This document shows, piece after piece, positions 2,681-58,912 of a stretch of 64,000 nucleotides of DNA; within the stretch, counting starts at the first letter, position 1, and the number at the start of each line of letters is the position of its first letter. The translations under genes and the position numbers were made by a program. Below the pieces are notes generated by a model, which saw only the letters and a program-made list of their open reading frames with translations, was not told the origin of the DNA and made no database searches. This DNA is from an uncultured Bacilli bacterium (lineage in GTDB: Bacteria > Bacillota_I > Bacilli_A > RF39 > UBA660): positions 11,776 through 75,775 of the forward strand of contig CAKOMI010000001.1 in the NCBI GenBank assembly GCA_934096605.1, given 5' to 3'.

Positions 2681-5600
2681 ATGAATAGGAAAAGGACATT
2701 GTTGATAGTAATAGTATTTTTATTGGCTGTTAGTGTAATAGGTGCTTCATATGCCTATTTTGCAGCGACCACAAGTAATAAAGGTAATGATGAAATAACA
2801 GAAATAACTACGGAAGAATTAGGAAGTATTAAGTGGGAAGGTACTAAGGTTTATGAAAGTGGTGATTCCTTACCTGGTGAAATAGGAATTCAGACTTTTA
2901 AAGTATCTAAAAATAGTGATAATGGAAAAGGCATTTATGAAATAGACTTAGAAGGAATTATTGATGAAGCATTTAATGAAGACGTTTTGATAAGTTTATA
3001 TAAGACTACTGAACCTGATAAAAATTATGTTAAAGTAACAGAAGGTGAAAGTACAATTACAGGTGATGATGATACCAAAATGTATTATAAAGAGGATAAG
3101 TTACAAGCAGTAGGAACACCAGAGTTAGTCTATGGACCAAGAGCTTTAGAAACAAAAGATCCAATCATTTTGTATCAAGCTGACTTTGATAATACTAATT
3201 TTCCCGAAACAACATTTTATTTAGTATATGAGTATTTAAATAAAGATAATCAAGATGCAGAGCAAGGTAAAAGTTTTAGTGGTACTATAAATGTAAGATT
3301 AATACTTGAAAAAATAATAGGCGAAGAAAGTGATATCGATATTACATATACCTCTAATAGAAATGATTATGTAAATACAGATGAAACACTTACTATAACA
3401 GCTACAAGTGAAAAATATAATATAGCACGTTATAGTTTTGATAATATTATCTATACACCAGTAGATAATCCAAGTAAAACAGTAACAATAACTAAAACAT
3501 ATACTGAAGAAAAAGATAATATCATTTATTTTAAAGATGACGTTGGTAATACTAAAAGTAAAACACTAGATTTATTCTTAGATAAAACTGGACCTAGTAT
3601 TACTGCTAAAACAACTTTGGAATGGGATAAAACTAATACGATAAGTATTACTTTAGAAGATGAGAAATCTGGGTTAGCTGGATATGCTTTAACAGAGACT
3701 GAAACAGACCCTAGCGAATGGACAAGCATTACTGGAAAAAGTACAACTATAGCAAAAGACGTTACAAGTAATAAAAAATATTATGTATATGCTAAAGATG
3801 TTTTAGGTAATATTAGTCATAAAGACGTTGAGGTAAGTCATGTTGATGAAACTGCACCAGTAATTAATGAGATAAATGAGCAGGAAAATTATGGTGCCAC
3901 TAGTGTGATTTCTGTTAGTGTTAAAGATAATGAAACTGGTATAGTAGGTTATGCCTTTACAACTACAAATGAAGAACCGACTGAGTGGACAAGTGTTGAT
4001 AATGTTATAACTGAAGAAAAATATACGTATGAAGCTTCTAGTAATGGAACAATTTATTTTTGGGTTAAGGATAGAGTTGGTAATATTACTAGTAAACCAA
4101 TAAATGTTACAAAGGTTGATACAACAGCTCCAACTATTACATTGAGTTTAAGTGATGAATTAACTTGGACCTCTTCTAAAACATTAACAATGAATTTTAG
4201 CGATGATGAATCGGGACTTTTGGGATATAAAGTGACTCGTGATGATTCTGAGCCAACTGAATGGTTGAGTATAACTGGTTTTAAGATAACTAAGACTGAA
4301 ACAATTATCGGAAATGGCTTATATTATATATGGGTAAAAGATAAGGCGGGATTAGTTACTTGTGTAACTAAATTTGTGTCATACGCTGATTCAGAAAAGC
4401 CAGTTGCTAGTATGAAATTAACGTCAACTAGTGACTCTATAACTATTGATGCTAGTTCTTCTATTGATACTGAAAGTGGAATAGTGTCATATGAATATAG
4501 TTTAGATGACATTCATTATTATTATTCTATGAATCCAATATACACTTTTACAGATTTAGCAATAGGTGAATATACAGTTTATTTGAAAGTTCGTGATAAA
4601 ACTGGTAATGAAGGTTTTAGTAAAATGAATGTTGGTGTTTATCAAACATTTACAAATGAGCTTAAAACTCTTGCAAGTACAGATACAACAAATTTAATGG
4701 CTGATGATTATGAAAATTTAAGATATGTTGGTGATAACCCTAGCAATTACGTAAAAATAGGGGATAGTACGCTTGGTTTTGATTTGTATGAATTTTATTA
4801 TAATGGTGAAAAACAAGGAAATGAATTAATGTATTCGGAGGAATGTAACCAATTACTTAGTGGGTACATGGACATGATGGATTATAATGCTACATGTGAA
4901 CTAGCACATTCTTATAATGAACCAATTTTGTGGCGGGTTATTGGAGTTATAAAAGACGTAGATGATGGTAATGGTAATAAAAGTGATCGTGTTAAATTGA
5001 TTAGACAATTTCCAATTGGCAATTATTCATGGGATACTAGTTTGAGTGCCGTAAATGGTGGCTATGGTGTTAATGAATGGAGTTTAGCTGATATAATGAA
5101 ACTATTAAATCCTGGCTATGAAAATAATAAAGATAAAGAGCGATACAATACTGAAGTTACCGTTAATAATAGCTTGTTTTGGAATAAAGAAAGTGGATTA
5201 TGTTTTACCTATTCTAATAATACTGTTGGTACTAGTTCTGATGGTGGTAGTATGTGCGATTTTAAACAAAATGGGTTGTCTGATGAATTAAAAAGTATGA
5301 TTGATGCTGCTGTATGGAATACAGGTGCTATTACAAATTTGAGTAGTTTGACAAGCAGTTTTTATGAACAAGAAAGAAGCACAAGTAATGGTAAAATTTG
5401 TACTAGTGGTAACTATTGTAATGATACAATCGGAAGAACTTCTAGCTGGACTGGTAAAGTTGGTTTAATGTATCCAAGTGACTATGGCTATGCCATAGGA
5501 GGAAGTAGTAGAGATAAATGCTTAAAATCAGTTACATTAGATAAATGGAAATCAAATAATGATTGTAGTAATGGTAACTGGCTGCTTAATGTTAGTGAAG

Positions 5601-5794
5601 AAGGAGCAACCATGACACCTGGTGCCGCGTCTAATTATGCTACAAATGTTTATTCTATTAGTACTAGTGGTTATGCATATTCAGGCTATGCTTATTATAA
5701 ACACGCTATAAGTCCAGTAGTCTATTTAAAGACTAATGTTAAAGTTACTGGGGGAGATGGTTCAATAGACAATCCCTTTACTTTAGAAAATTGA
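2681..5794 (+). CDS. large secreted/surface protein, paralog A: N-terminal signal anchor, Ig-like repeats, conserved Cys-containing C-terminal domain
   Basis: An ATG with a GGAAAGAGG RBS is followed by K/R-rich residues and a hydrophobic segment. That segment ends SYAYFAA. Four to five repeats of about 95 aa carry D-x-T-A/G-P-x-I, SGL/I-x-GY and EWTS motifs. The last 380 aa or so are homologous to the C-termini of the ORFs at 27968, 29507 and 57095. The stop is TGA. Confidence 0.8.
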   Translation: MNRKRTLLIVIVFLLAVSVIGASYAYFAATTSNKGNDEITEITTEELGSIKWEGTKVYESGDSLPGEIGIQTFKVSKNSDNGKGIYEIDLEGIIDEAFNEDVLISLYKTTEPDKNYVKVTEGESTITGDDDTKMYYKEDKLQAVGTPELVYGPRALETKDPIILYQADFDNTNFPETTFYLVYEYLNKDNQDAEQGKSFSGTINVRLILEKIIGEESDIDITYTSNRNDYVNTDETLTITATSEKYNIARYSFDNIIYTPVDNPSKTVTITKTYTEEKDNIIYFKDDVGNTKSKTLDLFLDKTGPSITAKTTLEWDKTNTISITLEDEKSGLAGYALTETETDPSEWTSITGKSTTIAKDVTSNKKYYVYAKDVLGNISHKDVEVSHVDETAPVINEINEQENYGATSVISVSVKDNETGIVGYAFTTTNEEPTEWTSVDNVITEEKYTYEASSNGTIYFWVKDRVGNITSKPINVTKVDTTAPTITLSLSDELTWTSSKTLTMNFSDDESGLLGYKVTRDDSEPTEWLSITGFKITKTETIIGNGLYYIWVKDKAGLVTCVTKFVSYADSEKPVASMKLTSTSDSITIDASSSIDTESGIVSYEYSLDDIHYYYSMNPIYTFTDLAIGEYTVYLKVRDKTGNEGFSKMNVGVYQTFTNELKTLASTDTTNLMADDYENLRYVGDNPSNYVKIGDSTLGFDLYEFYYNGEKQGNELMYSEECNQLLSGYMDMMDYNATCELAHSYNEPILWRVIGVIKDVDDGNGNKSDRVKLIRQFPIGNYSWDTSLSAVNGGYGVNEWSLADIMKLLNPGYENNKDKERYNTEVTVNNSLFWNKESGLCFTYSNNTVGTSSDGGSMCDFKQNGLSDELKSMIDAAVWNTGAITNLSSLTSSFYEQERSTSNGKICTSGNYCNDTIGRTSSWTGKVGLMYPSDYGYAIGGSSRDKCLKSVTLDKWKSNNDCSNGNWLLNVSEEGATMTPGAASNYATNVYSISTSGYAYSGYAYYKHAISPVVYLKTNVKVTGGDGSIDNPFTLEN

Positions 5795-27375: not shown

Positions 27376-27413
27376 AAAACAAACATTTTAGATATAGTAT
27401 GTTTGTTTTTTTC
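27375..27413 (+). terminator. rho-independent terminator after the PBP gene
   Basis: AAAAAACAAACAT pairs with ATGTTTGTTTTTT and a T-run follows. Confidence 0.6.
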
Positions 27414-27416
27414 TTA

Positions 27417-27731
27417 TTATACTAAATTAAAATAGTAAACGTCCTGGATATTGTCATTTTCTTTATTACAAGTAGTAAGGATTAATCTTTTTTCATTACG
27501 ACTTATGATACTTAAATTTCCATTTTTAGTTATATGATCTATTTTTATTAACTTATAATTATAGATATTTTTATTATAGTAAATAGTAGCTTTATCTTTT
27601 AAATATAGCTTATCTAAATTTTTAAAAAAGAAAACATTACTAGTACCAGAATGACTGGCTAAGATAAAGCCATAGTTATTATTTGGAGTACATTCTTTAG
27701 AAATAACGGTGACTAGGCGATTTTCTTTTTT
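27417..27731 (-). pseudogene. sortase-like C-terminal remnant (about 104 codons, no start codon)
   Basis: The minus-strand frame is open from a TAA stop. It encodes ...ILASHSG...YNYKLIKIDHITKNGNLSIISRNEKRLILTTCNKEND..., matching the sortase His and TLxTC active-site region. It has no N-terminal TM or His region and no ATG/GTG/TTG start. A T8 tract sits at its 5' edge. Confidence 0.35.
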
Positions 27732-27858
27732 TTAAGATAAATTTTTTAAAAAAATGTATATAGTAAGTATTTTATTTGTTTTTTGTTTATGCTAAAATTA
27801 AAGTATATTAAAGTAGAAAAGGAGGATGGTTAGCACAAGAATGTGTTAATTAAAGATT

Positions 27859-27897
27859 ATGAGATTAATTAAAAATAGGTTGGGGGGGGGGTTCTAG
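27859..27897 (+). CDS. upstream uORF MRLIKNRLGGGF* terminating just after the G10 tract
   Basis: The ATG at 27859 reads through the G-run as GGG x3 and stops at TAG 27895-97. With G9 it would fuse to the main ORF. Confidence 0.4.
   Translation: MRLIKNRLGGGF
27882..27891 (+). repeat. G10 homopolymer, a putative slipped-strand phase-variation tract
   Basis: Ten consecutive G residues in a genome of roughly 28% GC. They lie between the upstream ATG and the paralog B ORF. Confidence 0.85.
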
Positions 27898-27967
27898 TAA
27901 TAAGGATAAGATAGAACTTCAGGTATTTAGAGAACCTAATAAAAAAAGAAAAATTATATTAATAACT

Positions 27968-29287
27968 GTGTTATTTAGTATGTTAGCATTATCTTGTATG
28001 TACTTATATAAAACATATGCGGTGTTTACAGAAGAGAAACACTTTAATGTAATCAATGGAACTGTTCAAGATCCAGGAGATATTTATTTTGCATATTATG
28101 TAGATAATACAATAACAAGGGAAATGCCTAAGAAAGGAACAGGCTATACATTAGATATCGAAAAAAGCAATTGTACAAATGGAGTAACAGTAGGTTGGAA
28201 TCAAGATAAGTGGACAGCTCTAGTTAACTATGAAAACTATAATGCCACTGATTATACAAGAACAAAATGTAATTTGTATTTTAAACAAGTAACATATTGC
28301 GATTTGCATTCCGAGACAATGGCTTGTCAAATAACAAAGTTGGCAACAACAGAAACTACAAGCTTAGCCATAGATGACTATGGCAATACAAGATATATAG
28401 GAGCAGATCCAAACAACTATGTAAGCGTAGATGGTGATATATGGCGTATCATCGGTGTTATGAAGGACATAGATGATGGTACAGGTAATAAAAGTGACAG
28501 GGTAAAATTAATAAGAGCTGATTCAATAGGTGATTATTCATGGGACACAAGTGAAAGTTCTGTAAACGAAGGATATGGAGTAAACGAATGGAGCCAAGCA
28601 GATTTAATGAAATTATTAAATCCTGGCTATGAAAGCGTGACAGTAGGTGGCTCATTATACTGGAATAATGGAACAGGCACATGCTATAATAACAGAGCTA
28701 ATGTAGCTGCTAGTTGTAATTTCACAAGTATGGGTATCAGAGAAAAATTAAAAACACTAATAAGTGATGTCGTATGGAACACAGGCAGTCAAGGAACAAA
28801 TAATTATCAAAGCACTGGTGGAGGATTAGTAAAACATTTCTATACCTATGAAAGAGGTAATAATACTGGCAAAATTTGTTCAAGCGGCAACTATTGCAAT
28901 GACTTTGTGACAAGAACAACGACATGGACAGGAAAAGTTGGCTTAATGTATCCAAGCGACTATGGCTATGCCACAAGTGGAGAAAGTATAACAAACCGAG
29001 CAACATGTCTGAATACATATTTAAATAACTGGGGTAGCAGTAGTGTAAGTGACTGCAAAAATGGTGATTGGCTATTTAATAGTAGCAGTTCCCAATGGAC
29101 ATTATCGTCAGGTGCTTACTCTTCTGTTGCTGACTTTGTGTTCTTTGTGCATAGTAGTGGAATTATCAATTTTGATTATGCATATGACACTAATGCAGTT
29201 CGTCCTGTTGTTTACCTTTTGTCATCAGTAAAAATAGTATCGGGTGATGGTTCTTCTTCAAATCCATATGTCTTATCTGGCAGCTAG
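27968..29287 (+). CDS. surface protein paralog B with the conserved C-terminal domain; the 5' end may extend to ATG 27859 after a -1 G slip
   Basis: The ORF-track ORF opens at GTG 27968. Upstream in frame, and free of stops back to TAA 27866, lies ...GGSSNKDKIELQVFREPNKKRKIILITV. The C-terminal 320 aa are homologous to the other three paralogs (WRIIGVMKDIDDGTGNKSDRVKLIR, GVNEWSQADLMKLLNPGYE, ICSSGNYCND, TWTGKVGLMYPSDYGYA, VRPVVYL...SGDGSSSNPY). Confidence 0.8.
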   Translation: MLFSMLALSCMYLYKTYAVFTEEKHFNVINGTVQDPGDIYFAYYVDNTITREMPKKGTGYTLDIEKSNCTNGVTVGWNQDKWTALVNYENYNATDYTRTKCNLYFKQVTYCDLHSETMACQITKLATTETTSLAIDDYGNTRYIGADPNNYVSVDGDIWRIIGVMKDIDDGTGNKSDRVKLIRADSIGDYSWDTSESSVNEGYGVNEWSQADLMKLLNPGYESVTVGGSLYWNNGTGTCYNNRANVAASCNFTSMGIREKLKTLISDVVWNTGSQGTNNYQSTGGGLVKHFYTYERGNNTGKICSSGNYCNDFVTRTTTWTGKVGLMYPSDYGYATSGESITNRATCLNTYLNNWGSSSVSDCKNGDWLFNSSSSQWTLSSGAYSSVADFVFFVHSSGIINFDYAYDTNAVRPVVYLLSSVKIVSGDGSSSNPYVLSGS

Positions 29288-29397
29288 TTAAAAAAATAAA
29301 TACATATTTTATTGTTTTAAAAGTTATGTTAAAATACGAAATATAAATAAAGTAGAAAAGGAGGATAGTTAGCACGTGAATGTGTTAATTAAAGATT

Positions 29398-29436
29398 ATG
29401 AGATTAATTAAAAATAGGTTGGGGGGGGGGTTCTAA
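29398..29436 (+). CDS. upstream uORF MRLIKNRLGGGF* (second copy)
   Basis: The ATG at 29398 reads through the G10 tract and stops at TAA 29434-36. Confidence 0.4.
   Translation: MRLIKNRLGGGF
29421..29430 (+). repeat. G10 homopolymer, second putative phase-variation tract
   Basis: Ten consecutive G residues, in the same context as 27882-27891. Confidence 0.85.
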
Positions 29437-29506
29437 TAATAGAGGCGAGATAGAACTTCAGGCTTTTAGAGAACCTAATAAAAAAAGAAAAATTATATTA
29501 GCAACT

Positions 29507-30805
29507 ATGTTGTTTAGTATGTTAGTATTATCTTGTATGTACTTATATAAAACATATGCCGTGTTTACAGAAGAAAAACACTTTAATGTGATAAATGGTG
29601 AGGTGCAAGATCCAGGAGATATCTATTTTGCTTATTATGCAGATAATACAATAACAAGGAGTATGCCTAAGAAAGGAACAGGCTATACTTTAGATACCGA
29701 AAAAAGTAATTGTACTAATGGAGTCATACCAAAATGGGATAATGGCGGTTGGCAATTTATAGGTGATTATAGTGATTATAATGCAACAGATTACACCAGA
29801 ACCAGATGCAATTTGTATTTTAAAAAAATAGATATAACGGCTGTTGATTATATTAAAGAGTTGGCTAAATACGATACAGAAACACTTGCTACAGATGAAG
29901 CTGGAGGTAATGTTAGGTATATAGGAAAATCTCCTGATAATTATGTAAATATTGATGGCGATATATGGCGTATCATTGGCGTTATGAAAGATATAGATGA
30001 TGGTACAGGAAAAAAGAGTGACAGAGTAAAATTAATAAGATCTTCTTCAATAGGAAAATATTCATGGGATAGTAGTGATTCAAAAGTTAATTATGGCAAG
30101 GGTGTTAATGAATGGAGTCAGGCCGATTTAATGAAACTTTTAAATCCTGGGTATGAAAGTGAGTCAGTAGGAGGCTCATTATATTGGAATGGCAAGTCGG
30201 GTACATGTTATAGTGATCAAAAAAATATTACAACAAGTTGTGATTTTACAAGTACAGGCATAAAAGATAAGTTGAAAAGATTAATAGGTAATGTTAATTG
30301 GGGGCTTGGGTCTGTTGATGGAGTAACTTATACATTTGCTAATATTTCTACCATTAAGTCATATGAATTTGAACAAAGTACTAATACGGGTAAAATTTGC
30401 GATGGGACGTATCAAGGAGGTATATACTGTACAGACACAGTAATAAGAACAACAACCTGGACCGGAAAAGTAGGCTTAATGTATCCTTCTGATTATGGTT
30501 ATGCGACAAGTGGTGGTAGTACAATTGATAGAGCAAAATGTTTAAAAGCTGCGATGCATTCTTGGAACAACGATTTGAATTTTTGCTATGAAAATAACTG
30601 GTTATCATGTGGCATTGATGAATTTACTTTAACTCCATCTCCTAGACCTGAATTTGATTATGATATTTTTTCTATTCATAATAAGGTTATTGATAGTTAT
30701 AGTGCGAATGCCTACATAAATGTTCGCCCTGTAGTATATTTAAAACCATCTGTATCTATTCAAAGCGGAGATGGCTCAGAAAATAGTCCTTTTATACTAG
30801 AATAA
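29507..30805 (+). CDS. surface protein paralog C with the conserved C-terminal domain; the 5' end may extend to ATG 29398 after a -1 G slip
   Basis: It has the same architecture as paralog B. The first 70 or so aa are nearly identical to B. The middle region is divergent. The C-terminal domain is conserved. Confidence 0.8.
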   Translation: MLFSMLVLSCMYLYKTYAVFTEEKHFNVINGEVQDPGDIYFAYYADNTITRSMPKKGTGYTLDTEKSNCTNGVIPKWDNGGWQFIGDYSDYNATDYTRTRCNLYFKKIDITAVDYIKELAKYDTETLATDEAGGNVRYIGKSPDNYVNIDGDIWRIIGVMKDIDDGTGKKSDRVKLIRSSSIGKYSWDSSDSKVNYGKGVNEWSQADLMKLLNPGYESESVGGSLYWNGKSGTCYSDQKNITTSCDFTSTGIKDKLKRLIGNVNWGLGSVDGVTYTFANISTIKSYEFEQSTNTGKICDGTYQGGIYCTDTVIRTTTWTGKVGLMYPSDYGYATSGGSTIDRAKCLKAAMHSWNNDLNFCYENNWLSCGIDEFTLTPSPRPEFDYDIFSIHNKVIDSYSANAYINVRPVVYLKPSVSIQSGDGSENSPFILE

Positions 30806-30845
30806 TTCTTTTGAAAAGAAAATAATACTTATTTCTTTTTCTAGT

Positions 30846-30885
30846 AAAGCCTAATAAATACTGCAGCTTATTAGGCTTTATTAAA
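30846..30885 (+). terminator. rho-independent terminator after the paralog pair
   Basis: AAAGCCTAATAA pairs with TTATTAGGCTTT and a weak T/A run follows. Confidence 0.5.
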
Positions 30886-30906
30886 AATATAGAAAGGTTT
30901 TTGTAT

Positions 30907-31455
30907 ATGAATAAAAAAGGTTTTGTGTTTATTGAAACTATAATAGTTATATCAATACTTTTAGCATCTTTGATGATTGTGTATTCTTTATATGTTTCAT
31001 CTATTAATAAAGAAAATAAAAGATTAAGATATGATGATCCAGTTAAATTATATCAAACGTTTTATATGAAACAATATTTAAATAGTTTTCGTCTTAATGA
31101 ATTAGAGAAAAATATTACTAATGAAAATCCATATATTAATATATATGGACAAAGTGATTTATTTGGTGGATCTTTTAGTAATGAAAAAAAGTTTTTTGAA
31201 AGAATTACAGATGAACTTAATATTGAAACAATTTTACTTACTACTTACGATGTGTCTTTATTAACTGATTGCAAAGAAAATAGAAATATGCTTTGTACTA
31301 ATAATAATTTAATCGAGTACTTAAATACTTTAGATAATGATGGAAAAAGTGGCTATAGGTTAATTATTGAGTATAAAGAACAGTTGAATGGTAAGAAATG
31401 TGAAAATAAAAAAGATTGTTATTCTTTCTATTCAAATGTATGGGTAGGTGATTAA
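30907..31455 (+). CDS. type IV prepilin-like protein (pilin or pseudopilin)
   Basis: The N-terminus MNKKG|FVFIETIIVISILLASLMIVY is a class III signal with G|F and Glu at +5. The C-terminal part has paired cysteines. Confidence 0.75.
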   Translation: MNKKGFVFIETIIVISILLASLMIVYSLYVSSINKENKRLRYDDPVKLYQTFYMKQYLNSFRLNELEKNITNENPYINIYGQSDLFGGSFSNEKKFFERITDELNIETILLTTYDVSLLTDCKENRNMLCTNNNLIEYLNTLDNDGKSGYRLIIEYKEQLNGKKCENKKDCYSFYSNVWVGD

Positions 31456-32060
31456 TGATGAAAAGTAAGGGATTTACATTAGTAGAAATTATTGTAAGTG
31501 TAGCACTTATTTCTATTGTGTTACTTTTATTATTCCAATTAATGACTGATATGGAGTATGATTCTTTAACTTCTATGTTTGCTAGTGATAATCAGGTGAA
31601 TAGAGCGACTATCATAAAAAGAATTGACAAGGATTTAATGGATTATGGTCTTAAAAGTATACCTAGTATTAACAATATTACTAATGGTAAACAAATTAAG
31701 CTTAGTTTTAGTAATGGTAGTAGTAAAGATATTATTGTAACTTCTAGTACACTTACATATGATGGGGAAAGTTATACAGTTTCTTCTGGTGGTTCTTATG
31801 ATATTAATAATATAAAGATTGTATCTATACCTAGTAATTCAGAGAAACTTTGTTCTTATATGTTAAATATTGATACAAATAACGATGGTGTATGTGATGC
31901 GAACTGTGGAACTAATGAGAGTAATATGACGAAGAAAAATGATAATTATGTATATTGTCCTATTTATCAAGCTATAAAAATAGTTATACCTGTTTTGTTT
32001 AGTGAAGATGATGTGGCACTTGATGATATAGAAATATTTTATATTGGAAAATTAAGTTAG
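31455..32060 (+). CDS. type IV prepilin-like protein (pilin or pseudopilin)
   Basis: The N-terminus MMKSKG|FTLVEIIVSVALISIVLLLLFQLM is a canonical prepilin signal. Cysteines are present in the C-terminal region. Confidence 0.75.
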   Translation: MMKSKGFTLVEIIVSVALISIVLLLLFQLMTDMEYDSLTSMFASDNQVNRATIIKRIDKDLMDYGLKSIPSINNITNGKQIKLSFSNGSSKDIIVTSSTLTYDGESYTVSSGGSYDINNIKIVSIPSNSEKLCSYMLNIDTNNDGVCDANCGTNESNMTKKNDNYVYCPIYQAIKIVIPVLFSEDDVALDDIEIFYIGKLS

Positions 32061-34864: not shown

Positions 34865-34894
34865 TTACTCATTCACAAAGCCATTGCGAGGAAG

Positions 34895-35165
34895 AGTAAA
34901 AAAATATAAAGCATTTTAGAGAACTCTGTTAGGTGAAAAAGAGGATGTAAGTATTTTTTGAACATGGCCCTCAAGGCGAATGACTGAAATACTCTTAGTA
35001 GGTCATTACGGGGATGCCCGTTATAGCAGATACCTATAACTATGCAAAAGACATAAGTAGGTTAGTGAGTTTAATACAGTAATGTATTAATAAATAAGAG
35101 TGGTAACGTGAATATATTCACCTCTTAGAGACTTAGTGTTTCTAAGAGGTTTTTTGTTTAAAGAA
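34895..35165 (+). promoter_or_regulatory. T-box riboswitch leader (probable Met specifier) controlling metG
   Basis: The T-box-like sequence AATAAGAGTGGTAACGTG overlaps an antiterminator. The terminator CCTCTTAGAGA...TCTAAGAGG plus T6 lies just before the RBS. Confidence 0.55.
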
Positions 35166-35178
35166 AGAGGGAGATAAT

Positions 35179-36810
35179 ATGAATATTATAATTGGAATTA
35201 GTTGGCCTTTTGCAAATGGGGAACTCCATATAGGTCATGCAGCAAGTAGTTTACCAGGAGATGTTATAGCTAGATACCATAGACTTAAAGGAGATAAAGT
35301 TATATTAGTATCTGGTACTGATTGTCATGGTACACCGACTGAAGTAAAAGCATTGCAAGAAAATAAAAGTCCAAAAGAAATAGTAGATGATTGCCATGTT
35401 TCATTTTCTAAAGATTTTAAAGACTTTGGTATAAGTTTTGACTTATACAATAGAACAGATGATCCTTATCATAAAGAGTTTGTTCGGGAACAATTTGTTA
35501 AATACTACAACAATGGTTATTTAGAAGAAAAGGAGGAAGAACAATTATATTGTGATCACTGCAAATTATTTTTAACAGATCGTTACATTATTGGTATTTG
35601 TCCTAAATGTGGATCTGAAATAAAAGGTGATGAATGTGAAAAATGTGGAAGTTTACTTACAATCGATGAAGTAAAAGAAACTAAATGTGCTATATGTGGT
35701 AATAAGGCATCATATAAGAAAAATAGAAATTTATATTTTAAACTTTCAATCTTTCAAGACAATATAAAAGAATTATTAGACTCTAAAAGAAATGATTGGA
35801 GAGAAAATGCTGTTAATTTTACTGAAAGATATCTTAAAGAAGGAATACCAGATAGATGTGCATCTCGTACTTTAAACTATGGTATTGATATTCCAATAGA
35901 TGGATTTAAAGATAAAAAGCTATATGGTTGGTTTGAAAATGTATGGGGATATGTAACTGCTAGTAAAAAATATGCTGAAGAAAATAAATTAAATTGGGAA
36001 GATTTTTGGAAAGGGAATAATAGCAAAATATATTTAGTTCATGCAAAAGATAATATTCCATTTCATACAGTTATATTTCCATCATTATTACTAGCAACCA
36101 ATGATAATTATAGATTGCCTGATAAAATAGTGTCAGATGAATATATAACTATTGAAGGAGAAAAATTATCCAAGAGCAAAGGTAACTATATTACATTAAG
36201 ACATTTATTAGATAATTATCCAGTAGATGCTATTAGATATTATTTTAGTATTTATAATCCTGAAACAAGAGATTTCAATTTCACTTATGAAGGTTTTATC
36301 AATTCTATTAATGGAGAATTACTTGGTAAATGGGGTAACTTTGTTAATAGAACATTGCAATTTATTAATAAATCATTTTATGGTAATTTAAGCAGTAGTA
36401 ATATTGATTCAACAATTGAAGCAAAGTTAAAAGATTTATATATTAATATTGGTAATGATATTGATAATGGAGATACAAAAGAAGGCTTATCAAAAATATT
36501 TGATTTTATAAACTATTCAAATAAGTATTTTGATGAAAATGAACCATGGAAATTAGCTAAAGAAGATGTAATCAAATGTGAAGATATTTTATATAATTGT
36601 TGTAATATTATATTTAATATAAATAATTTACTTAAACCATACTTTGTAGAAACAACAAAAAAGGTAGAAGAATATTTAAATAGCAATATTAGCAGCTGGA
36701 ATTATCAAAAATTAGAAAAGGTTGAATTATCAGAAGAAATAAAACCATTATTTATCAGATATGATAAAAAAGTAATTGTTCAAGAAAGAGAATTTCTAAA
36801 TAAAAATTAA
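35179..36810 (+). CDS. metG: methionyl-tRNA synthetase, short form without the C-terminal tRNA-binding extension
   Basis: It has the class I HIGH motif (ELHIGHAAS), GTDCHG, a CPKC...CEKC zinc knuckle and KLSKSKG (the KMSKS motif). Length is 543 aa. Confidence 0.75.
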   Translation: MNIIIGISWPFANGELHIGHAASSLPGDVIARYHRLKGDKVILVSGTDCHGTPTEVKALQENKSPKEIVDDCHVSFSKDFKDFGISFDLYNRTDDPYHKEFVREQFVKYYNNGYLEEKEEEQLYCDHCKLFLTDRYIIGICPKCGSEIKGDECEKCGSLLTIDEVKETKCAICGNKASYKKNRNLYFKLSIFQDNIKELLDSKRNDWRENAVNFTERYLKEGIPDRCASRTLNYGIDIPIDGFKDKKLYGWFENVWGYVTASKKYAEENKLNWEDFWKGNNSKIYLVHAKDNIPFHTVIFPSLLLATNDNYRLPDKIVSDEYITIEGEKLSKSKGNYITLRHLLDNYPVDAIRYYFSIYNPETRDFNFTYEGFINSINGELLGKWGNFVNRTLQFINKSFYGNLSSSNIDSTIEAKLKDLYINIGNDIDNGDTKEGLSKIFDFINYSNKYFDENEPWKLAKEDVIKCEDILYNCCNIIFNINNLLKPYFVETTKKVEEYLNSNISSWNYQKLEKVELSEEIKPLFIRYDKKVIVQEREFLNKN

Positions 36811-54027: not shown

Positions 54028-55302
54028 ATGTTTGTTGATGAAGTAAAAATGGAACTTTATGCTGGTCGTGGTGGCGATGGCTGTACGTCTTTTAGACGAG
54101 AAAAATATATTCCGATGGGGGGGCCTGATGGTGGTTCTGGTGGTAAAGGGGGCGACATTATTTTTGTAGCATCTAAAGATTTAAAGACCTTAGTTGATTT
54201 AAAGTATCACCGAATTATGAAAGCCGATAAAGGAATGAATGGTAAAGGAAAAAATAGAAAAGGAAAAGATGCTGATAATATTGTAGTTAAAGTACCACTT
54301 GGCACAACTGTTATAGATGATGATACAGGACTTGTGATGGCTGATTTGACGCATGATAAAGAAGAGTTAGTTGTGGCAGAAGGTGGACGCGGAGGCCGTG
54401 GTAACGTAGCTTTTGCAACACATGAAAAACCAGCACCAGAGTTTTCAGAGCTTGGTGAACCTGGAGAGGTTAGATATATTAAATGTGAATTAAAAGTGTT
54501 AGCAGATGTGGGATTAGTCGGAATGCCAAGTGTTGGCAAAAGTTCTATTTTGGCGGCTGTTTCTAGTGCGACGCCTAAAATTGCGGCCTATCATTTTACA
54601 ACTTTAACGCCTAACTTAGGGGTAGTAAATCTTAAAAATGGTCAAAAATTTGTTCTAGCTGATTTACCAGGAATGATTGAAGGAGCTAGTGAAGGTGTTG
54701 GTCTTGGTGATCGCTTTTTAAAACATGCCAAAAGAACAAGAATTTTAGCTCATGTTCTTGATATGGCTGGTAGTGAGGGAAGAGATCCGATAGATGACTA
54801 TGAAATTATTAGAAAAGAAATAGTTAATTATAATGATGATTTAGCTAATAAGTTAGAAATAGTTGTAGCCAATAAAATGGATATGCCAGACTTTAAAGAA
54901 AATTTAGAAAGATTTAAAGCTAAATATCCGGATAAACAAGTATATGCTGTAAGTGCAATAAATAATGAAGGCTTAGATGAATTAATGAATGGGCTTAGTG
55001 CTTCTTTAGAAAAAATTGAAAGTACAGATTTATATACAGAAGAAGATTATGAAAGTACCATTGTTTATAAATTTAAAAATGAAAAACCATATACAATTAC
55101 AAAAGAGAATGGTATATGGGTATTAAGAGGAAAAGAAATTGAAAAATTATTTGCTATGACAAGATTTACAGAACAAGAAGGAGTTATGCGTTTTGCAAGA
55201 AAATTAAAAGGTATGGGCGTTGAGGATGAGTTAGAACGACTTGGAGCAAAACGAGGCGATGAGGTCCAAATTTTAGATTATATTTTTGAATTTAAAGATT
55301 AG
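54028..55302 (+). CDS. obg: GTPase Obg
   Basis: It has the Gly-rich N-terminal domain (GGPDGGSGGKGGD) and the G1 motif GMPSVGKSS. A C-terminal OCT domain is present. Confidence 0.95.
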   Translation: MFVDEVKMELYAGRGGDGCTSFRREKYIPMGGPDGGSGGKGGDIIFVASKDLKTLVDLKYHRIMKADKGMNGKGKNRKGKDADNIVVKVPLGTTVIDDDTGLVMADLTHDKEELVVAEGGRGGRGNVAFATHEKPAPEFSELGEPGEVRYIKCELKVLADVGLVGMPSVGKSSILAAVSSATPKIAAYHFTTLTPNLGVVNLKNGQKFVLADLPGMIEGASEGVGLGDRFLKHAKRTRILAHVLDMAGSEGRDPIDDYEIIRKEIVNYNDDLANKLEIVVANKMDMPDFKENLERFKAKYPDKQVYAVSAINNEGLDELMNGLSASLEKIESTDLYTEEDYESTIVYKFKNEKPYTITKENGIWVLRGKEIEKLFAMTRFTEQEGVMRFARKLKGMGVEDELERLGAKRGDEVQILDYIFEFKD

Positions 55303-57094: not shown

Positions 57095-58912
57095 ATGATG
57101 ACATATATTAGAATAGAGGTATTGGTTATGAATAGTAAGAAAAGTTGGTCAAAAAAAATATTATTAGCTCTTGGCATATTAATAGGGTTAGTAGGCGTAA
57201 GTTATGCTTTATGGCATATAACACTTAGTGGTACAAATAATAATACAATTACAGCCACATGCTTTAATGTGTCTTTTACAGATCAAAATAATATTAGTAT
57301 TGAAAAAGCCTATCCTTTATTAGATGAAGAAGGAAAGAAATTAACACCTTATGAATTTACAATAACTAACAACTGTGATACATACGTTAAATATGATATT
57401 AACTTAGAAATATTAAATAATTCAACATTAACAAATATGGATTACATAAAATTAATGTTAGATGATGAGACACCTGCCTTAGTATCAAGTTATGATGTAA
57501 CAACAAAAACACTTAGTAATGCAAGTACAGCCTATAAAATTAAAATGAGTTATTTAAATGCTAAAGAAAGTAAAACCTATTATTTAAGATTATGGTTAGA
57601 TGAAAATGTTACTGGTGAAACAGAAGGAGTCCAAAATAATACCTTTATTTCTAAGATAACAGTAAACGCAAGTTATGCTGAAAGTGCTCCTGAATATTGT
57701 GAATTAAATCCAAATACAGCTGCATGTCAAATTGAAACATTAGCTGAAACTGACACAACTAATTTAGCAGTAGATGACTATGGCAATACAAGATATATCG
57801 GAGCGAATCCAAATAATTATGTCAGAGTAGAAGGAGAAGAATATACAAGTGATGTTTATTATGGTTATAACGGTTCTGATACTTCTTCTTATAGGGAGTA
57901 TTCTAGTTTAGATAAATGCACTCATTCCAGTACTTATTCTGCTAATTGTACATTAGTACCTAAAGGTACACCAATTTTATGGCGTATTATCGGTACAATG
58001 AAAGATATAGATGATGGTACCGGCAACAAGAGTGACAGATTAAAATTGATAAGAAATGATTCAATAGGCGAGTATTCATGGGACACAAGTGACTCAAGTG
58101 TTAATAGTGGCAATGGTGTCAATGAATGGAGCCAAGCAGATTTAATGAAGCTCTTAAATCCAGGTTATGAAAATGAAGAAATTGGTGGTTCATTATATTG
58201 GAATAATAAAAATGGTACATGCTATTACTCTTCCAATAATAAAACAACAAGTTGTGATTTCACAAATAGAGGCATAAATGGTAAATTGAAGTCATTAATA
58301 GGTAATGCCGTATGGAATACTGGTGCAAATGATGGAACAACGTATACGTATAAAAATATGAATGCTTCAGAATTTTATCAGTTAGAGAGAAGCAAGAATA
58401 TTGGTAAAATTTGCACAAGTGGCGATTATTGCAATGACTCAGTAGAAAGAACAACGACATGGACCGGTTTAGTTGGACTTATGTATTCGAGTGACTATGG
58501 ATATGCGACAAGTGGCGGCAGTACTACAGACAGAGCAACGTGTTTAAATGGTAATCTTAGTCATTGGAGTAAAAATTTTGAGTCTAACACTAATCAACAA
58601 ATTGTTACTGGATTTGAAGATTGTGTAATAAATAATTGGATATTTGATTCGTTTCTGCCACCACAGTGGACTATTTCATCAGCAAATGAGGTGTATAGTA
58701 AGGCAACTCAAGTATTTCTTGTTTGGCAATGTGTTTCCCCAAGTCCTGCAAGTAATGCTAGGCGTAAATATAACATAGATAATGATGGCCTTTCGGAAGA
58801 GACCACTTCTGGTATTGGCGCTGATGTTTTTCCAACTGTATATTTAAAATCATCTGTAAAAATTGCGTCTGGAAGTGGTTCAAAAGAGGACCCATTTGTT
58901 TTAGGAAATTGA
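57095..58912 (+). CDS. surface protein paralog D with the conserved C-terminal domain
   Basis: It has a strong GGAGGAGGG RBS. A basic-TM N-terminus ends VSYALW. A unique N-terminal module of about 190 aa is followed by the C-terminal domain. That domain is near-identical to B at DNA level over DDYGNTRYIG. The stop is TGA. Confidence 0.8.
   Translation: MMTYIRIEVLVMNSKKSWSKKILLALGILIGLVGVSYALWHITLSGTNNNTITATCFNVSFTDQNNISIEKAYPLLDEEGKKLTPYEFTITNNCDTYVKYDINLEILNNSTLTNMDYIKLMLDDETPALVSSYDVTTKTLSNASTAYKIKMSYLNAKESKTYYLRLWLDENVTGETEGVQNNTFISKITVNASYAESAPEYCELNPNTAACQIETLAETDTTNLAVDDYGNTRYIGANPNNYVRVEGEEYTSDVYYGYNGSDTSSYREYSSLDKCTHSSTYSANCTLVPKGTPILWRIIGTMKDIDDGTGNKSDRLKLIRNDSIGEYSWDTSDSSVNSGNGVNEWSQADLMKLLNPGYENEEIGGSLYWNNKNGTCYYSSNNKTTSCDFTNRGINGKLKSLIGNAVWNTGANDGTTYTYKNMNASEFYQLERSKNIGKICTSGDYCNDSVERTTTWTGLVGLMYSSDYGYATSGGSTTDRATCLNGNLSHWSKNFESNTNQQIVTGFEDCVINNWIFDSFLPPQWTISSANEVYSKATQVFLVWQCVSPSPASNARRKYNIDNDGLSEETTSGIGADVFPTVYLKSSVKIASGSGSKEDPFVLGN

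What the first reader, a model, noticed from the sequence alone, without database searches (positions are those of the whole stretch)
29398..29530. Second identical G10 switch on the tandem paralog C, in the same OFF register
The leader is repeated 1.5 kb downstream. The ATG at 29398 gives the identical uORF MRLIKNRLGGGF* (TAA 29434). G10 lies at 29421-29430. The main ORF (ATG 29507) is again one G out of frame and is preceded by an in-frame stop-free SNNRGEIELQAFREPNKKRKIILATM. The two leaders differ at several nucleotides: GGATAAG vs AGGCGAG, GTA vs GCT. Every difference keeps the extension frame open, which argues that the extension is translated in some cells. Two independent tracts could generate four combinatorial expression states of two antigenically different surface proteins.
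Basis: seen in the sequence. Interest (0 to 1): 0.8.

Follow-up and report, generated by a model that had tools for sequence, protein, structure and literature searches.

The report
Poly-G on/off switch, secreted protein genes
Two neighbouring genes for secreted lectin-like proteins of an uncultured gut bacterium each carry a run of ten G's just after the start codon. Gut samples from different hosts show that gaining or losing a single G turns each gene on or off independently, which is a classic phase-variation switch found here in a new gene family and lineage.

Summary
G10 lies at 29421-29430, and ATG 29398 gives MRLIKNRLGGGF followed by TAA at 29434. Removing one G fuses this to an open 25-codon extension and the 432-codon ORF. 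An identical arrangement sits 1.5 kb upstream, with G10 at 27882-27891.

The "uORF" is really the true N-terminus of the protein, cut short by the frameshift. The extension encodes the charged part of the signal peptide.

Tract length varies between samples. Metagenome contigs from other samples are 100% identical over 3.5 kb except for one G in one tract. All four states occur: G10/G10, G9/G10, G10/G9 and G9/G9. About 16-18% of assemblies carry an ON (G9) allele.

Half of 68 homologous genes in related gut genomes assembled from metagenomes carry G8-G13. The tract lies either in the same coding position or between promoter -35 and -10 hexamers.

The protein has a signal anchor, a beta domain and a large C-type-lectin-like domain. 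That domain most resembles what is probably the N-terminal domain of the Thomasclavelia ramosa IgA protease.

The gene family and the lineage are new for it. Switching rate and within-sample heterogeneity remain untested.

The parts
29327..29335 (+). Promoter-like extended -10 element of copy C (TGTTAAAAT). Inferred.
   Evidence: It is conserved with TGCTAAAAT at 27790-27798 of copy B in the leader alignment. The simple -35/-10 scan did not report it, so this is an inference only.
29358..29364 (+). Shine-Dalgarno sequence AAGGAGG of copy C, 33 nt upstream of ATG 29398.
   Evidence: It is identical in both leaders and in all same-species contigs.
29366..29391 (+). Predicted 10-bp RNA hairpin between the SD and the start codon. 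It would loop out 26 nt, giving an effective SD-to-AUG spacing of about 7 nt, and it sequesters the mini-ORF ATGTGTTAA (29380-29388).
   Evidence: strand folding gives dG -9.3 kcal/mol and z -4.1. The same hairpin is predicted in copy B (27827-27852; -9.6, z -5.5) and in a third allele (-8.7, z -5.0). The relative L017 lacks the 18-nt duplication and has its SD 9 nt from the ATG.
29398..29400 (+). True start codon of copy C.
   Evidence: G9 alleles were called from this ATG as 468-aa proteins (P0001, P0126) in other assemblies.
29421..29430 (+). G10 tract of copy C, the switch. G9 is ON and G10 is OFF.
   Evidence: Searches give the tract. It is G9 in L001, L002, L082, L084 and L085, and G10 in the window, L080 and L081. 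It is the only difference from the window over 3.5 kb in L001 and L002.
29434..29436 (+). Premature stop (TAA) reached in the G10 register after 12 codons.
29431..29506 (+). N-terminal extension read only in the ON register (SNNRGEIELQAFREPNKKRKIILAT). It holds the cytoplasmic or charged n-region and the beginning of the signal-anchor helix.
   Evidence: It is open in all alleles despite SNPs. It is conserved as protein across homologues. The AF2 helix spans residues 28-54.
29507..30805 (+). Body of copy C: the rest of the signal peptide, a beta domain, and a large C-type-lectin-like domain.
27859..29287 (+). Copy B with the same switch: ATG 27859, G10 at 27882-27891, TAG at 27895-27897, body to 29287.
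   Evidence: Searches give the features. The tract is G9 (ON, 475 aa, P0122) in L081, L082 and L083, and G10 elsewhere.
27819..27852 (+). SD (27819-25) and leader hairpin (27827-52) of copy B.

Best explanation
Genes B (27859-29287) and C (29398-30805) are contingency loci. Each is switched by slipped-strand mispairing of a poly-G tract that lies in the part of the gene coding for the cytoplasmic end of the signal peptide.

- **ON state (G9).** The ribosome starts at ATG 29398 (27859 for B). It reads MRLIKNRLGGG-SNNRGEIELQAFREPNKKRK, then the hydrophobic helix, then a probable signal-peptidase site (KTYA/VF). It goes on through a beta domain and a roughly 300-residue C-type-lectin-like domain. 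The product is exported or anchored at the cell surface.
- **OFF state (G10, as in this window).** Translation stops after 12 codons. The body of the gene has no ribosome-binding site of its own and would lack the charged n-region, so little or no exported protein is made.
- **Switching.** Replication slippage adds or removes one G, and the two tracts change independently. A population therefore holds cells expressing neither, either or both of two proteins that are 59% identical.

What is shown:
- the frames;
- the length polymorphism between otherwise identical contigs;
- all four states;
- conservation of the tract across a large gene family.

What is inferred:
- that the variation arises by slippage at high rate and reversibly within a lineage;
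- that the proteins are surface-exposed ligand binders;
- that the pay-off is immune, phage or niche evasion.
For: 1. The tracts are far beyond chance and are the only long G runs in the window.
2. A change of one G toggles between a 12-aa and a 468- or 475-aa product.
3. Over 3,501 nt, L080 is 100% identical to the window. L081, L001 and L002 have 0 mismatches and exactly one 1-nt gap, which is the tract (B in L081; C in L001 and L002).
4. Exact-sequence counts give B OFF on 32 contigs and ON on 7. C OFF is on 35 contigs, plus 39 and 7 for allelic variants. C ON is on 2 contigs, plus 11, 1 and 1 for variants. No G12 forms are on record.
5. All four combinations are seen: window and L080 G10/G10, L081 G9/G10, L001 and L084 G10/G9, L082 G9/G9. 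Rough state counts of 22, 5, 11 and 1 are compatible with independence (Fisher p = 0.64).
6. The tract is conserved while its flanks diverge. Of the top 120 homologue clusters, 34 have a full N-terminus with GGG and 17 were called from inside the signal peptide. GGG is the rarest Gly codon here, at 13%.
7. In representative genomes assembled from gut metagenomes, 34 of 68 family genes have G>=8 at the 5' end. In each coding-type tract followed by enough sequence to read, a change of 1-2 G restores a 460-487 aa ORF. Roughly one third are in frame.
8. Other paralogues in the window have an ordinary charged N-terminus followed by a hydrophobic helix at the position that B and C only obtain in the ON frame.
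9. Alleles without the internal ATG exist.
Against: - No reads were available, so heterogeneity within a sample, the switching rate and reversibility are not shown.
- The differences are between consensus assemblies from different samples.
- ON alleles are a minority (about 16-18%), so expression may be rare or costly.
- Transcriptional slippage on G10 could leak some product from OFF alleles and blur the switch.
- The SD lies 33 nt from the start codon. Efficient initiation depends on a predicted hairpin that is not tested.
- Export and surface location rest on a predicted helix only. No Pfam or NCBIfam signal or family model matched.
Confidence: 0.85

Rival explanations
1. Recoding at the RNA level. 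G10 is the functional genotype. Full-length protein is made by RNA-polymerase slippage on the G run, or by ribosomal frameshifting, so the DNA "OFF" state is really a low constitutive ON.
For: G10 is the majority consensus in this species. Most coding-type tracts in relatives are also out of frame. From general knowledge, long homopolymers do cause transcriptional slippage.
Against: In-frame G9 alleles exist in several samples and in both genes. Among relatives some tracts need +1 and others -1 to restore the frame, and about a third are in frame. That pattern fits random length drift and not a fixed recoding signal. No slippery heptamer or strong downstream structure was seen. This rival could coexist with the DNA switch as leakiness.
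Confidence: 0.08
2. Homopolymer sequencing or assembly error. The true length is the same everywhere and G9/G10 calls are noise.
For: Homopolymers of 9-10 nt are error-prone in most platforms, and some contigs have low coverage (about 6-20x by their names).
Against: Only G9 and G10 are seen. The same call recurs on many independent contigs. B and C differ in state on the same contig. The same tract class is found in assemblies from many projects and assemblers, with lengths from 8 to 13. Consensus calls average many reads.
Confidence: 0.03
3. Decaying pseudogenes. B and C were inactivated by a frameshift in this strain, and the G9 alleles are simply the intact ancestral form.
For: Both genes are out of frame in the window and in most assemblies.
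Against: There are no other lesions. Both bodies are open for 432-439 codons and the extension is open in every allele. The frameshift is always at the tract. ON and OFF forms occur on otherwise identical sequence, for B in one sample and for C in another, which needs repeated recent events at two tracts. The tract is kept across species using a rare codon.
Confidence: 0.03
4. A regulatory uORF, which is the literal reading of the first reader's wording. MRLIKNRLGGGF is a leader peptide, and the protein proper starts at ATG 29507 (GTG 27968 in B).
For: There is a short ORF with a start and a stop upstream of a long ORF.
Against: There is no SD before ATG 29507. That ATG is replaced by GTT in the L082, L084 and L085 alleles. 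A protein starting there would lack the charged n-region that all paralogues and homologues have. The intervening 25 codons are conserved as protein.
Confidence: 0.01

Closest known systems
Poly-G contingency genes of Campylobacter jejuni, and poly-G in the signal-peptide coding region of Neisseria pilC (from general knowledge; C. jejuni SSR phase variation also in PMC8437040, seen)
   Same: An AT-rich genome carries isolated G8-G13 runs in the 5' coding region of genes for surface-related products. A change of one G toggles the frame, and several loci switch independently to give combinatorial states.
   Different: The host is an uncultured Gram-positive-type gut bacillus and not a proteobacterial pathogen. 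The target is an undescribed family of secreted proteins with a C-type-lectin-like domain. Switching rate and phenotype are unknown.
Bifidobacterium breve sortase-dependent pilus G-tract switch (PMC9187656, abstract seen)
   Same: It is a gut commensal in which an intragenic G tract and replication slippage control expression of a surface structure ON/OFF.
   Different: The gene family, the position of the tract and the phylum all differ. There the switch was measured by deep sequencing. Here only differences between samples are seen.
Mycoplasma hyorhinis vlp-type promoter homopolymer switches (from general knowledge)
   Same: In relatives of this window, many paralogues carry the homopolymer between a TTGAC(A/G) -35 hexamer and a TAnnAT -10 hexamer. 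This makes a multigene family of variable secreted proteins in a reduced-genome Bacillota lineage.
   Different: The window's own genes use the coding-region version. The tract is poly-G and not poly-A. The spacers found (18-22 nt) are longer than the 17-nt optimum, and which length is ON is unknown. The proteins are not lipoproteins.
N-terminal C-type-lectin-like domain of Thomasclavelia ramosa IgA metallopeptidase IgAse (PDB 9qa6; PMC12237041)

Membership tests
Homopolymer (simple-sequence-repeat) contingency locus / slipped-strand phase variation | Homopolymeric tract long enough to be hypermutable (>=8 nt) and far above chance | tested here: met
   There are two G10 runs and the next longest is G7. 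About 0.002 are expected.
Homopolymer (simple-sequence-repeat) contingency locus / slipped-strand phase variation | Tract placed so that a change of one unit switches expression of a downstream ORF | tested here: met
   G9 or G12 gives 468-476 aa. G8, G10 and G11 give 12-18 aa.
Homopolymer (simple-sequence-repeat) contingency locus / slipped-strand phase variation | Tract-length polymorphism between closely related genomes with otherwise identical flanks | tested here: met
   L081, L001 and L002 show 0 mismatches over 2.5-3.5 kb and one 1-nt gap at the tract.
Homopolymer (simple-sequence-repeat) contingency locus / slipped-strand phase variation | ON and OFF alleles coexist in the species, and separate loci vary independently | tested here: met
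   All four B/C states are. Independence is not rejected.
Homopolymer (simple-sequence-repeat) contingency locus / slipped-strand phase variation | Tract maintained at the nucleotide level across diverged homologues | tested here: met
   G8-G13 is present in 34 of 68 family genes of related metagenome-assembled genomes. GGG is seen in 34 of 120 homologue N-termini although it is the rarest Gly codon.
Homopolymer (simple-sequence-repeat) contingency locus / slipped-strand phase variation | High-frequency, reversible switching within a clonal population (mixed lengths in reads or colonies) | not testable with these tools
   No reads or cultures were available. Only consensus assemblies could be compared.
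Programmed ribosomal frameshift or transcriptional-slippage recoding site | Out-of-frame arrangement fixed, and in the same direction, in all homologues | tested here: not met
   In-frame alleles exist. Relatives need +1 in some loci and -1 in others.
Programmed ribosomal frameshift or transcriptional-slippage recoding site | Stimulatory element (slippery heptamer, downstream structure or internal SD) | tested here: inconclusive
   Only a weak 5-bp stem overlaps the tract in the leader fold. This was not examined further.
Regulatory upstream ORF / leader peptide | Main ORF has its own conserved start codon and ribosome-binding site downstream of the uORF | tested here: not met
   No SD is present. 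The ATG is absent in the L082, L084 and L085 alleles. The signal-peptide n-region lies upstream of it.
C-type-lectin-like domain proteins (IgAse N-terminal-domain-like) | Fold similarity to solved C-type-lectin-like domains | tested here: met
C-type-lectin-like domain proteins (IgAse N-terminal-domain-like) | Sequence-level membership (Pfam, NCBIfam or PDB profile match) | tested here: not met
   There are no Pfam or NCBIfam hits. There is no PDB hit with a profile of 82 sequences.
Promoter-spacer homopolymer switch (Vlp/porA type), for relatives only | Tract lies between the -35 and -10 hexamers of the gene's promoter | tested here: not met
   This is not the case in the window, where the tract is 23 nt inside the coding sequence. 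It is met by pattern in about 40 tracts of related genomes: TTGACN, spacer 18-22, TAnnAT. The effect on transcription is not testable.

The most novel reading that the evidence does not exclude
The two tracts are the local tip of a lineage-wide system. An undescribed family has thousands of members: 7,705 database proteins at E<=1e-5, a count that also takes in proteins sharing only the C-terminal domain. These are secreted proteins with a C-type-lectin-like domain, found in uncultured, reduced-genome gut Bacilli of humans, rabbits and chickens. The relevant records are labelled 'Tenericutes' or Candidatus Ventrenecus. On this reading the family is governed by poly-G contingency tracts that have moved between two positions, the promoter spacer and the signal-peptide coding region. 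That would give these cell-walled commensals a mycoplasma-style variable surface. In the window species the switch is combined with a split ribosome-binding site, in which a hairpin bridges a 33-nt gap between SD and AUG.
Probability: 0.5. Interest if true: 0.6.

Novelty: new member of a known kind. Interest (0 to 1): 0.5.

Why it matters
Phase variation by repeat slippage is mostly documented in cultured pathogens. Here public metagenome assemblies alone show it operating in an uncultured gut commensal lineage. The evidence is single-G differences on otherwise identical sequence, and all four states of a two-gene pair.

It has four practical consequences:
- It marks a large unannotated family as the likely variable surface of these bacteria.
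- It explains why gene callers truncate many of its members, which matters for annotation of metagenome-assembled genomes.
- It links the family structurally to what is probably the N-terminal domain of a gut IgA protease, a domain of unknown function.
- It offers defined loci for read-level studies of within-host switching, for example against IgA or phage pressure.

Tried and rejected
- **Family searches.** Pfam and NCBIfam scans of B and C found nothing, including no SipW-type signal model that I had suspected from the YAVFTEE motif.
- **RNA families.** An Rfam scan of the leaders at E<=1 found nothing, so this is not a known riboswitch or leader.
- **Structure and profile searches.** Foldseek against the PDB found no significant match. 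The AFDB library was unavailable. A profile search of PDB sequences gave only a chance hit.
- **Wider DNA scan.** A DNA-pattern scan of JGI metagenomes for the leader gave 0 hits. The species is present in ENA human-gut assemblies instead.
- **Gene-call lookup.** A lookup of the 432-aa ORF from ATG 29507 found it is not on record. Gene callers used the next ATG, giving 428 aa.
- **Promoter and terminator scan.** The simple scan around the genes was uninformative.
- **Literature.** Searches for the taxon or for a described phase-variable family in it found nothing relevant.
- **G7 at 54117.** I considered it as a third switch and rejected it. It lies in frame in the glycine-rich N-domain of Obg.
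- **Two-colour-chemistry poly-G artefacts.** I rejected these because the tracts are internal, short and positionally conserved.

Full report
**1. The observation**

The window is 28.9% G+C, and G outnumbers C on the + strand (18.3% vs 10.5%). It holds exactly two G runs longer than 7. These are G10 at 27882-27891 and G10 at 29421-29430. About 0.002 such runs are expected from composition.

At the second tract, ATG 29398 opens MRLIKNRLGGGF and stops at TAA 29434-29436. The frame reached by dropping one G is open from the tract. It reads SNNRGEIELQAFREPNKKRKIILATM and runs into the 432-codon ORF 29507-30805. Copy B, 1.5 kb upstream, has the same leader.

**2. What the short ORF really is**

The other two paralogues in the window start at ATG 2681 and at 57095. 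Each begins with a short charged stretch and a hydrophobic helix followed by YA(Y/L)F/W. B and C get this layout only in the shifted frame, as ...EPNKKRK-IILATMLFSMLVLSCMYLY-KTYAVFTEE.

An AlphaFold model of the G9 form has mean pLDDT 85.6 and was built from 82 homologues. It shows:
- residues 1-24 disordered;
- one long helix at 28-54;
- a low-confidence linker;
- a beta domain at 75-143;
- a large alpha/beta domain from about 160 to 468.

Three further facts argue against a start at ATG 29507. It has no Shine-Dalgarno sequence. In the alleles of L082, L084 and L085 that codon is GTT. The extension is conserved as protein across dozens of homologues, as KLQKFKENNSKRK and similar. So the "uORF" is the first 11 codons of the real protein plus one out-of-frame codon, and the G10 state is a frameshift-truncated (OFF) allele.

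**3. Direct evidence that the tract length varies**

The G9 version of C that I built by hand already exists in the protein collection as P0001, with 100% identity over 468 aa. The contigs that encode it carry G9 at the C tract.

Exact-sequence look-ups gave these contig counts:

| Gene | OFF form | ON form |
|---|---|---|
| B | 32 (435 aa) | 7 (475 aa, G9) |
| C, window allele | 35 (428 aa) | 2 (468 aa) |
| C, allelic variants in the same 90% cluster | 39 and 7 | 11, 1 and 1 |

No G12 forms are on record.

Reading the DNA of the contigs shows all four combinations:

| State (B / C) | Contigs |
|---|---|
| G10 / G10 | window, L080 |
| G9 / G10 | L081 |
| G10 / G9 | L001, L084 |
| G9 / G9 | L082 |

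The strongest evidence comes from comparing 3,501 nt (window 27400-30900). L080 is 100% identical. L081 and L001 have no mismatch at all and a single 1-nt gap, and L002 shows the same over the 2,477 nt it covers. That gap is the B tract in L081 and the C tract in L001 and L002. The tracts are therefore the only sites that differ between samples carrying this strain.

Rough state counts from the contig look-ups are at least 22 OFF/OFF, 5 ON/OFF, 11 OFF/ON and 1 ON/ON. These do not depart from independence (Fisher p = 0.64).

**4. The tract is a family trait**

A scan of one genome per species found 77 loci encoding relatives. All are in uncultured gut genomes assembled from metagenomes. Their records are titled Tenericutes, Bacilli, Firmicutes or Candidatus Ventrenecus, and they come from humans (including Hadza), rabbits and chickens. 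There are several paralogues per genome.

Those loci hold dozens of G runs of 8 nt or more, almost all on the sense strand at the 5' end of a family gene. Of the 68 focal genes with upstream sequence, 34 have such a tract. Two architectures occur.

- **(a) Coding-region tract.** As in the window, the tract lies a few codons after the ATG and encodes GGG. Each such tract with enough downstream sequence to read is restorable to a 460-487 aa ORF by a change of 1 or 2 G. About 8 are out of frame and 3-4 are in frame. Some need +1 and others -1.
- **(b) Promoter-spacer tract.** The tract lies between TTGAC(A/G) and TA(T/A/C)AAT, giving spacers of 18-22 nt with G9-G13. It is often followed by a TGn extended -10, and an SD and ATG come about 25 nt further on.

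Paralogues with identical promoter flanks differ by one G, for example L064, L066, L067, L069 and L073. Two genes have interrupted tracts: GGGGAGGGGG in L036 and GGGAGGGGGG in L065.

Among the 120 best homologue clusters, 34 start with a full N-terminus containing GGG. Another 17 were called from inside the signal peptide, which is the signature of OFF alleles. GGG is the rarest glycine codon in the window, at 13%. Three in a row, kept while the neighbouring residues change, points to selection on the DNA tract and not on the peptide.

**5. Mechanism**

The best explanation is classical slipped-strand mispairing at a homopolymer in the 5' coding region, with G9 ON and G10 OFF for both genes. 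It is a shown fact that length differs between otherwise identical sequences and that both genes vary separately. It is inferred that this happens at high rate and reversibly within a lineage.

Each gene has its own conserved leader of about 130 nt, with a TGnTAAAAT element and an AAGGAGG. Independent transcription is therefore plausible but not shown.

An oddity is that the SD lies 33 nt from the start codon. An 18-nt tandem duplication separates them (ATGTGTTAATTAAAGATT / ATGAGATTAATTAAAAAT). The relative L017 has one copy, with its SD 9 nt from the ATG. In all three alleles tested, a 10-11 bp hairpin is predicted exactly between the SD and the ATG. Its dG is -8.7 to -9.6 kcal/mol, with z -4.1 to -5.5. 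The hairpin would loop out 26 nt and leave about 7 nt of effective spacing. The A/G difference between B and C in the stem keeps the pair (A-U vs G-U). This split ribosome-binding site is an inference. From memory, phage T4 gene 38 is a precedent.

**6. What the proteins are**

No Pfam or NCBIfam family matches them, and sources name them only as hypothetical. Foldseek against the PDB found nothing.

The paper on that structure describes an N-terminal domain (A31-A321). It is an oversized C-type-lectin-like domain whose closest relative is that same Lcl domain. It is not required for IgA cleavage and its function is unknown (PMC12237041). I infer that the match is to this domain. B and C contain no protease domain.

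B and C are 59% identical. The first ~110 residues are nearly the same and the lectin-like part is divergent. A ligand-binding, surface-exposed role is plausible but untested.

Two genes for ComGE/ComGF-like minor pilins follow directly (30907-31455 and 31455-32060). This order is kept in every same-species contig.

**7. Rivals**

- **RNA-level recoding.** It cannot be the main story. In-frame DNA alleles exist, and relatives need shifts in both directions. It may add leakiness.
- **Sequencing error.** It is unlikely. Calls recur on many contigs, B and C differ on the same contig, and the tract class appears across projects.
- **Pseudogene decay.** It does not fit. The lesion is always at the tract, the rest of both genes is intact, and ON and OFF forms occur on identical backgrounds at two different tracts.
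- **A true regulatory uORF.** This is excluded by point 2 above.

**8. Comparison and novelty**

Functionally this is the same device as the poly-G contingency genes of Campylobacter jejuni, the G tract in the signal-peptide region of Neisseria pilC (general knowledge), and the Bifidobacterium breve pilus G tract (PMC9187656). The promoter-spacer version in relatives parallels mycoplasma vlp and meningococcal porA/opc.

All testable defining features of a contingency locus are met. Clonal switching could not be tested. No paper in the library describes this family or phase variation in this lineage.

I rate it a new member of a known kind. It is well supported and useful, but mechanistically unsurprising. 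Interest is 0.5.

Noticed in passing
L011, L014, L019, L022, L030, L041, L042, L046-L048, L057, L059-L062, L064, L066-L073, L077 (about 50-100 nt upstream of each family gene): In related genomes the poly-G (G9-G13) lies in the promoter and not in the gene, between TTGAC(A/G) and TAnnAT. The spacers are 18-22 nt, often with a TGn extended -10. Paralogues with identical flanks differ by one G. Which length is ON is unknown, and all spacers exceed the 17-nt optimum.
   Followed up: partly
L036 (about 4900-4960) and L065 (about 230-260): Interrupted tracts (GGGGAGGGGG, GGGAGGGGGG) sit in the same promoter position, each giving a 19-nt spacer. They may be 'locked' versions of the switch.
   Followed up: no
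window 27827-27852 and 29366-29391: A predicted 10-11 bp hairpin lies exactly between the SD (AAGGAGG) and the start codon of both leaders (z -4 to -5.5). It is associated with an 18-nt tandem duplication that put the SD 33 nt from the ATG. It would restore about 7 nt of effective spacing and bury a mini-ORF (ATG TGT TAA).
   Followed up: partly
window 2681-5794 and 57095-58912: Two further paralogues share the C-terminal lectin-like domain (45-50% identity) but have no G tract and ordinary N-terminal signal anchors. The first is 1,037 aa and has a PKD domain.
   Followed up: partly
window 30907-31455 and 31455-32060: Two genes for ComGE/ComGF-like minor pilins (prepilin N-methylation motif) lie directly downstream of copy C. 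This order is conserved in all same-species contigs. Whether B and C have anything to do with the pilus is unknown.
   Followed up: no
L082 vs L081 and L084: L082 combines the window-type B allele with the L084-type C allele. Some database homologues (for example P0004) share C's N-terminus but diverge later. This suggests recombination or mosaicism between alleles or paralogues.
   Followed up: no
L003 6710-6719; L045 4427-4435 (- strand); L078 2640-2649: These loci hold G9-G10 tracts that are not at the focal family gene. One lies in a promoter-like context after a family gene. One lies in a 5' UTR just before an ATG. One lies inside a 269-aa ORF. The genes they control were not identified.
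   Followed up: no
window 34875-35128: A T-box leader (Rfam RF00230, 105 bits) lies upstream of the methionyl-tRNA synthetase gene (35179-36810). This is ordinary.
   Followed up: yes
window 54117-54123: The third-longest G run (G7) lies in frame in the glycine-rich N-domain of Obg GTPase. It is not a switch.
   Followed up: yes
window, whole: The strands are strongly asymmetric (G 18.3% vs C 10.5% on the + strand), and nearly all long ORFs are on the + strand. In the loci examined, all but one of the G tracts of 8 nt or more are G and not C on the strand of the family gene.
   Followed up: no
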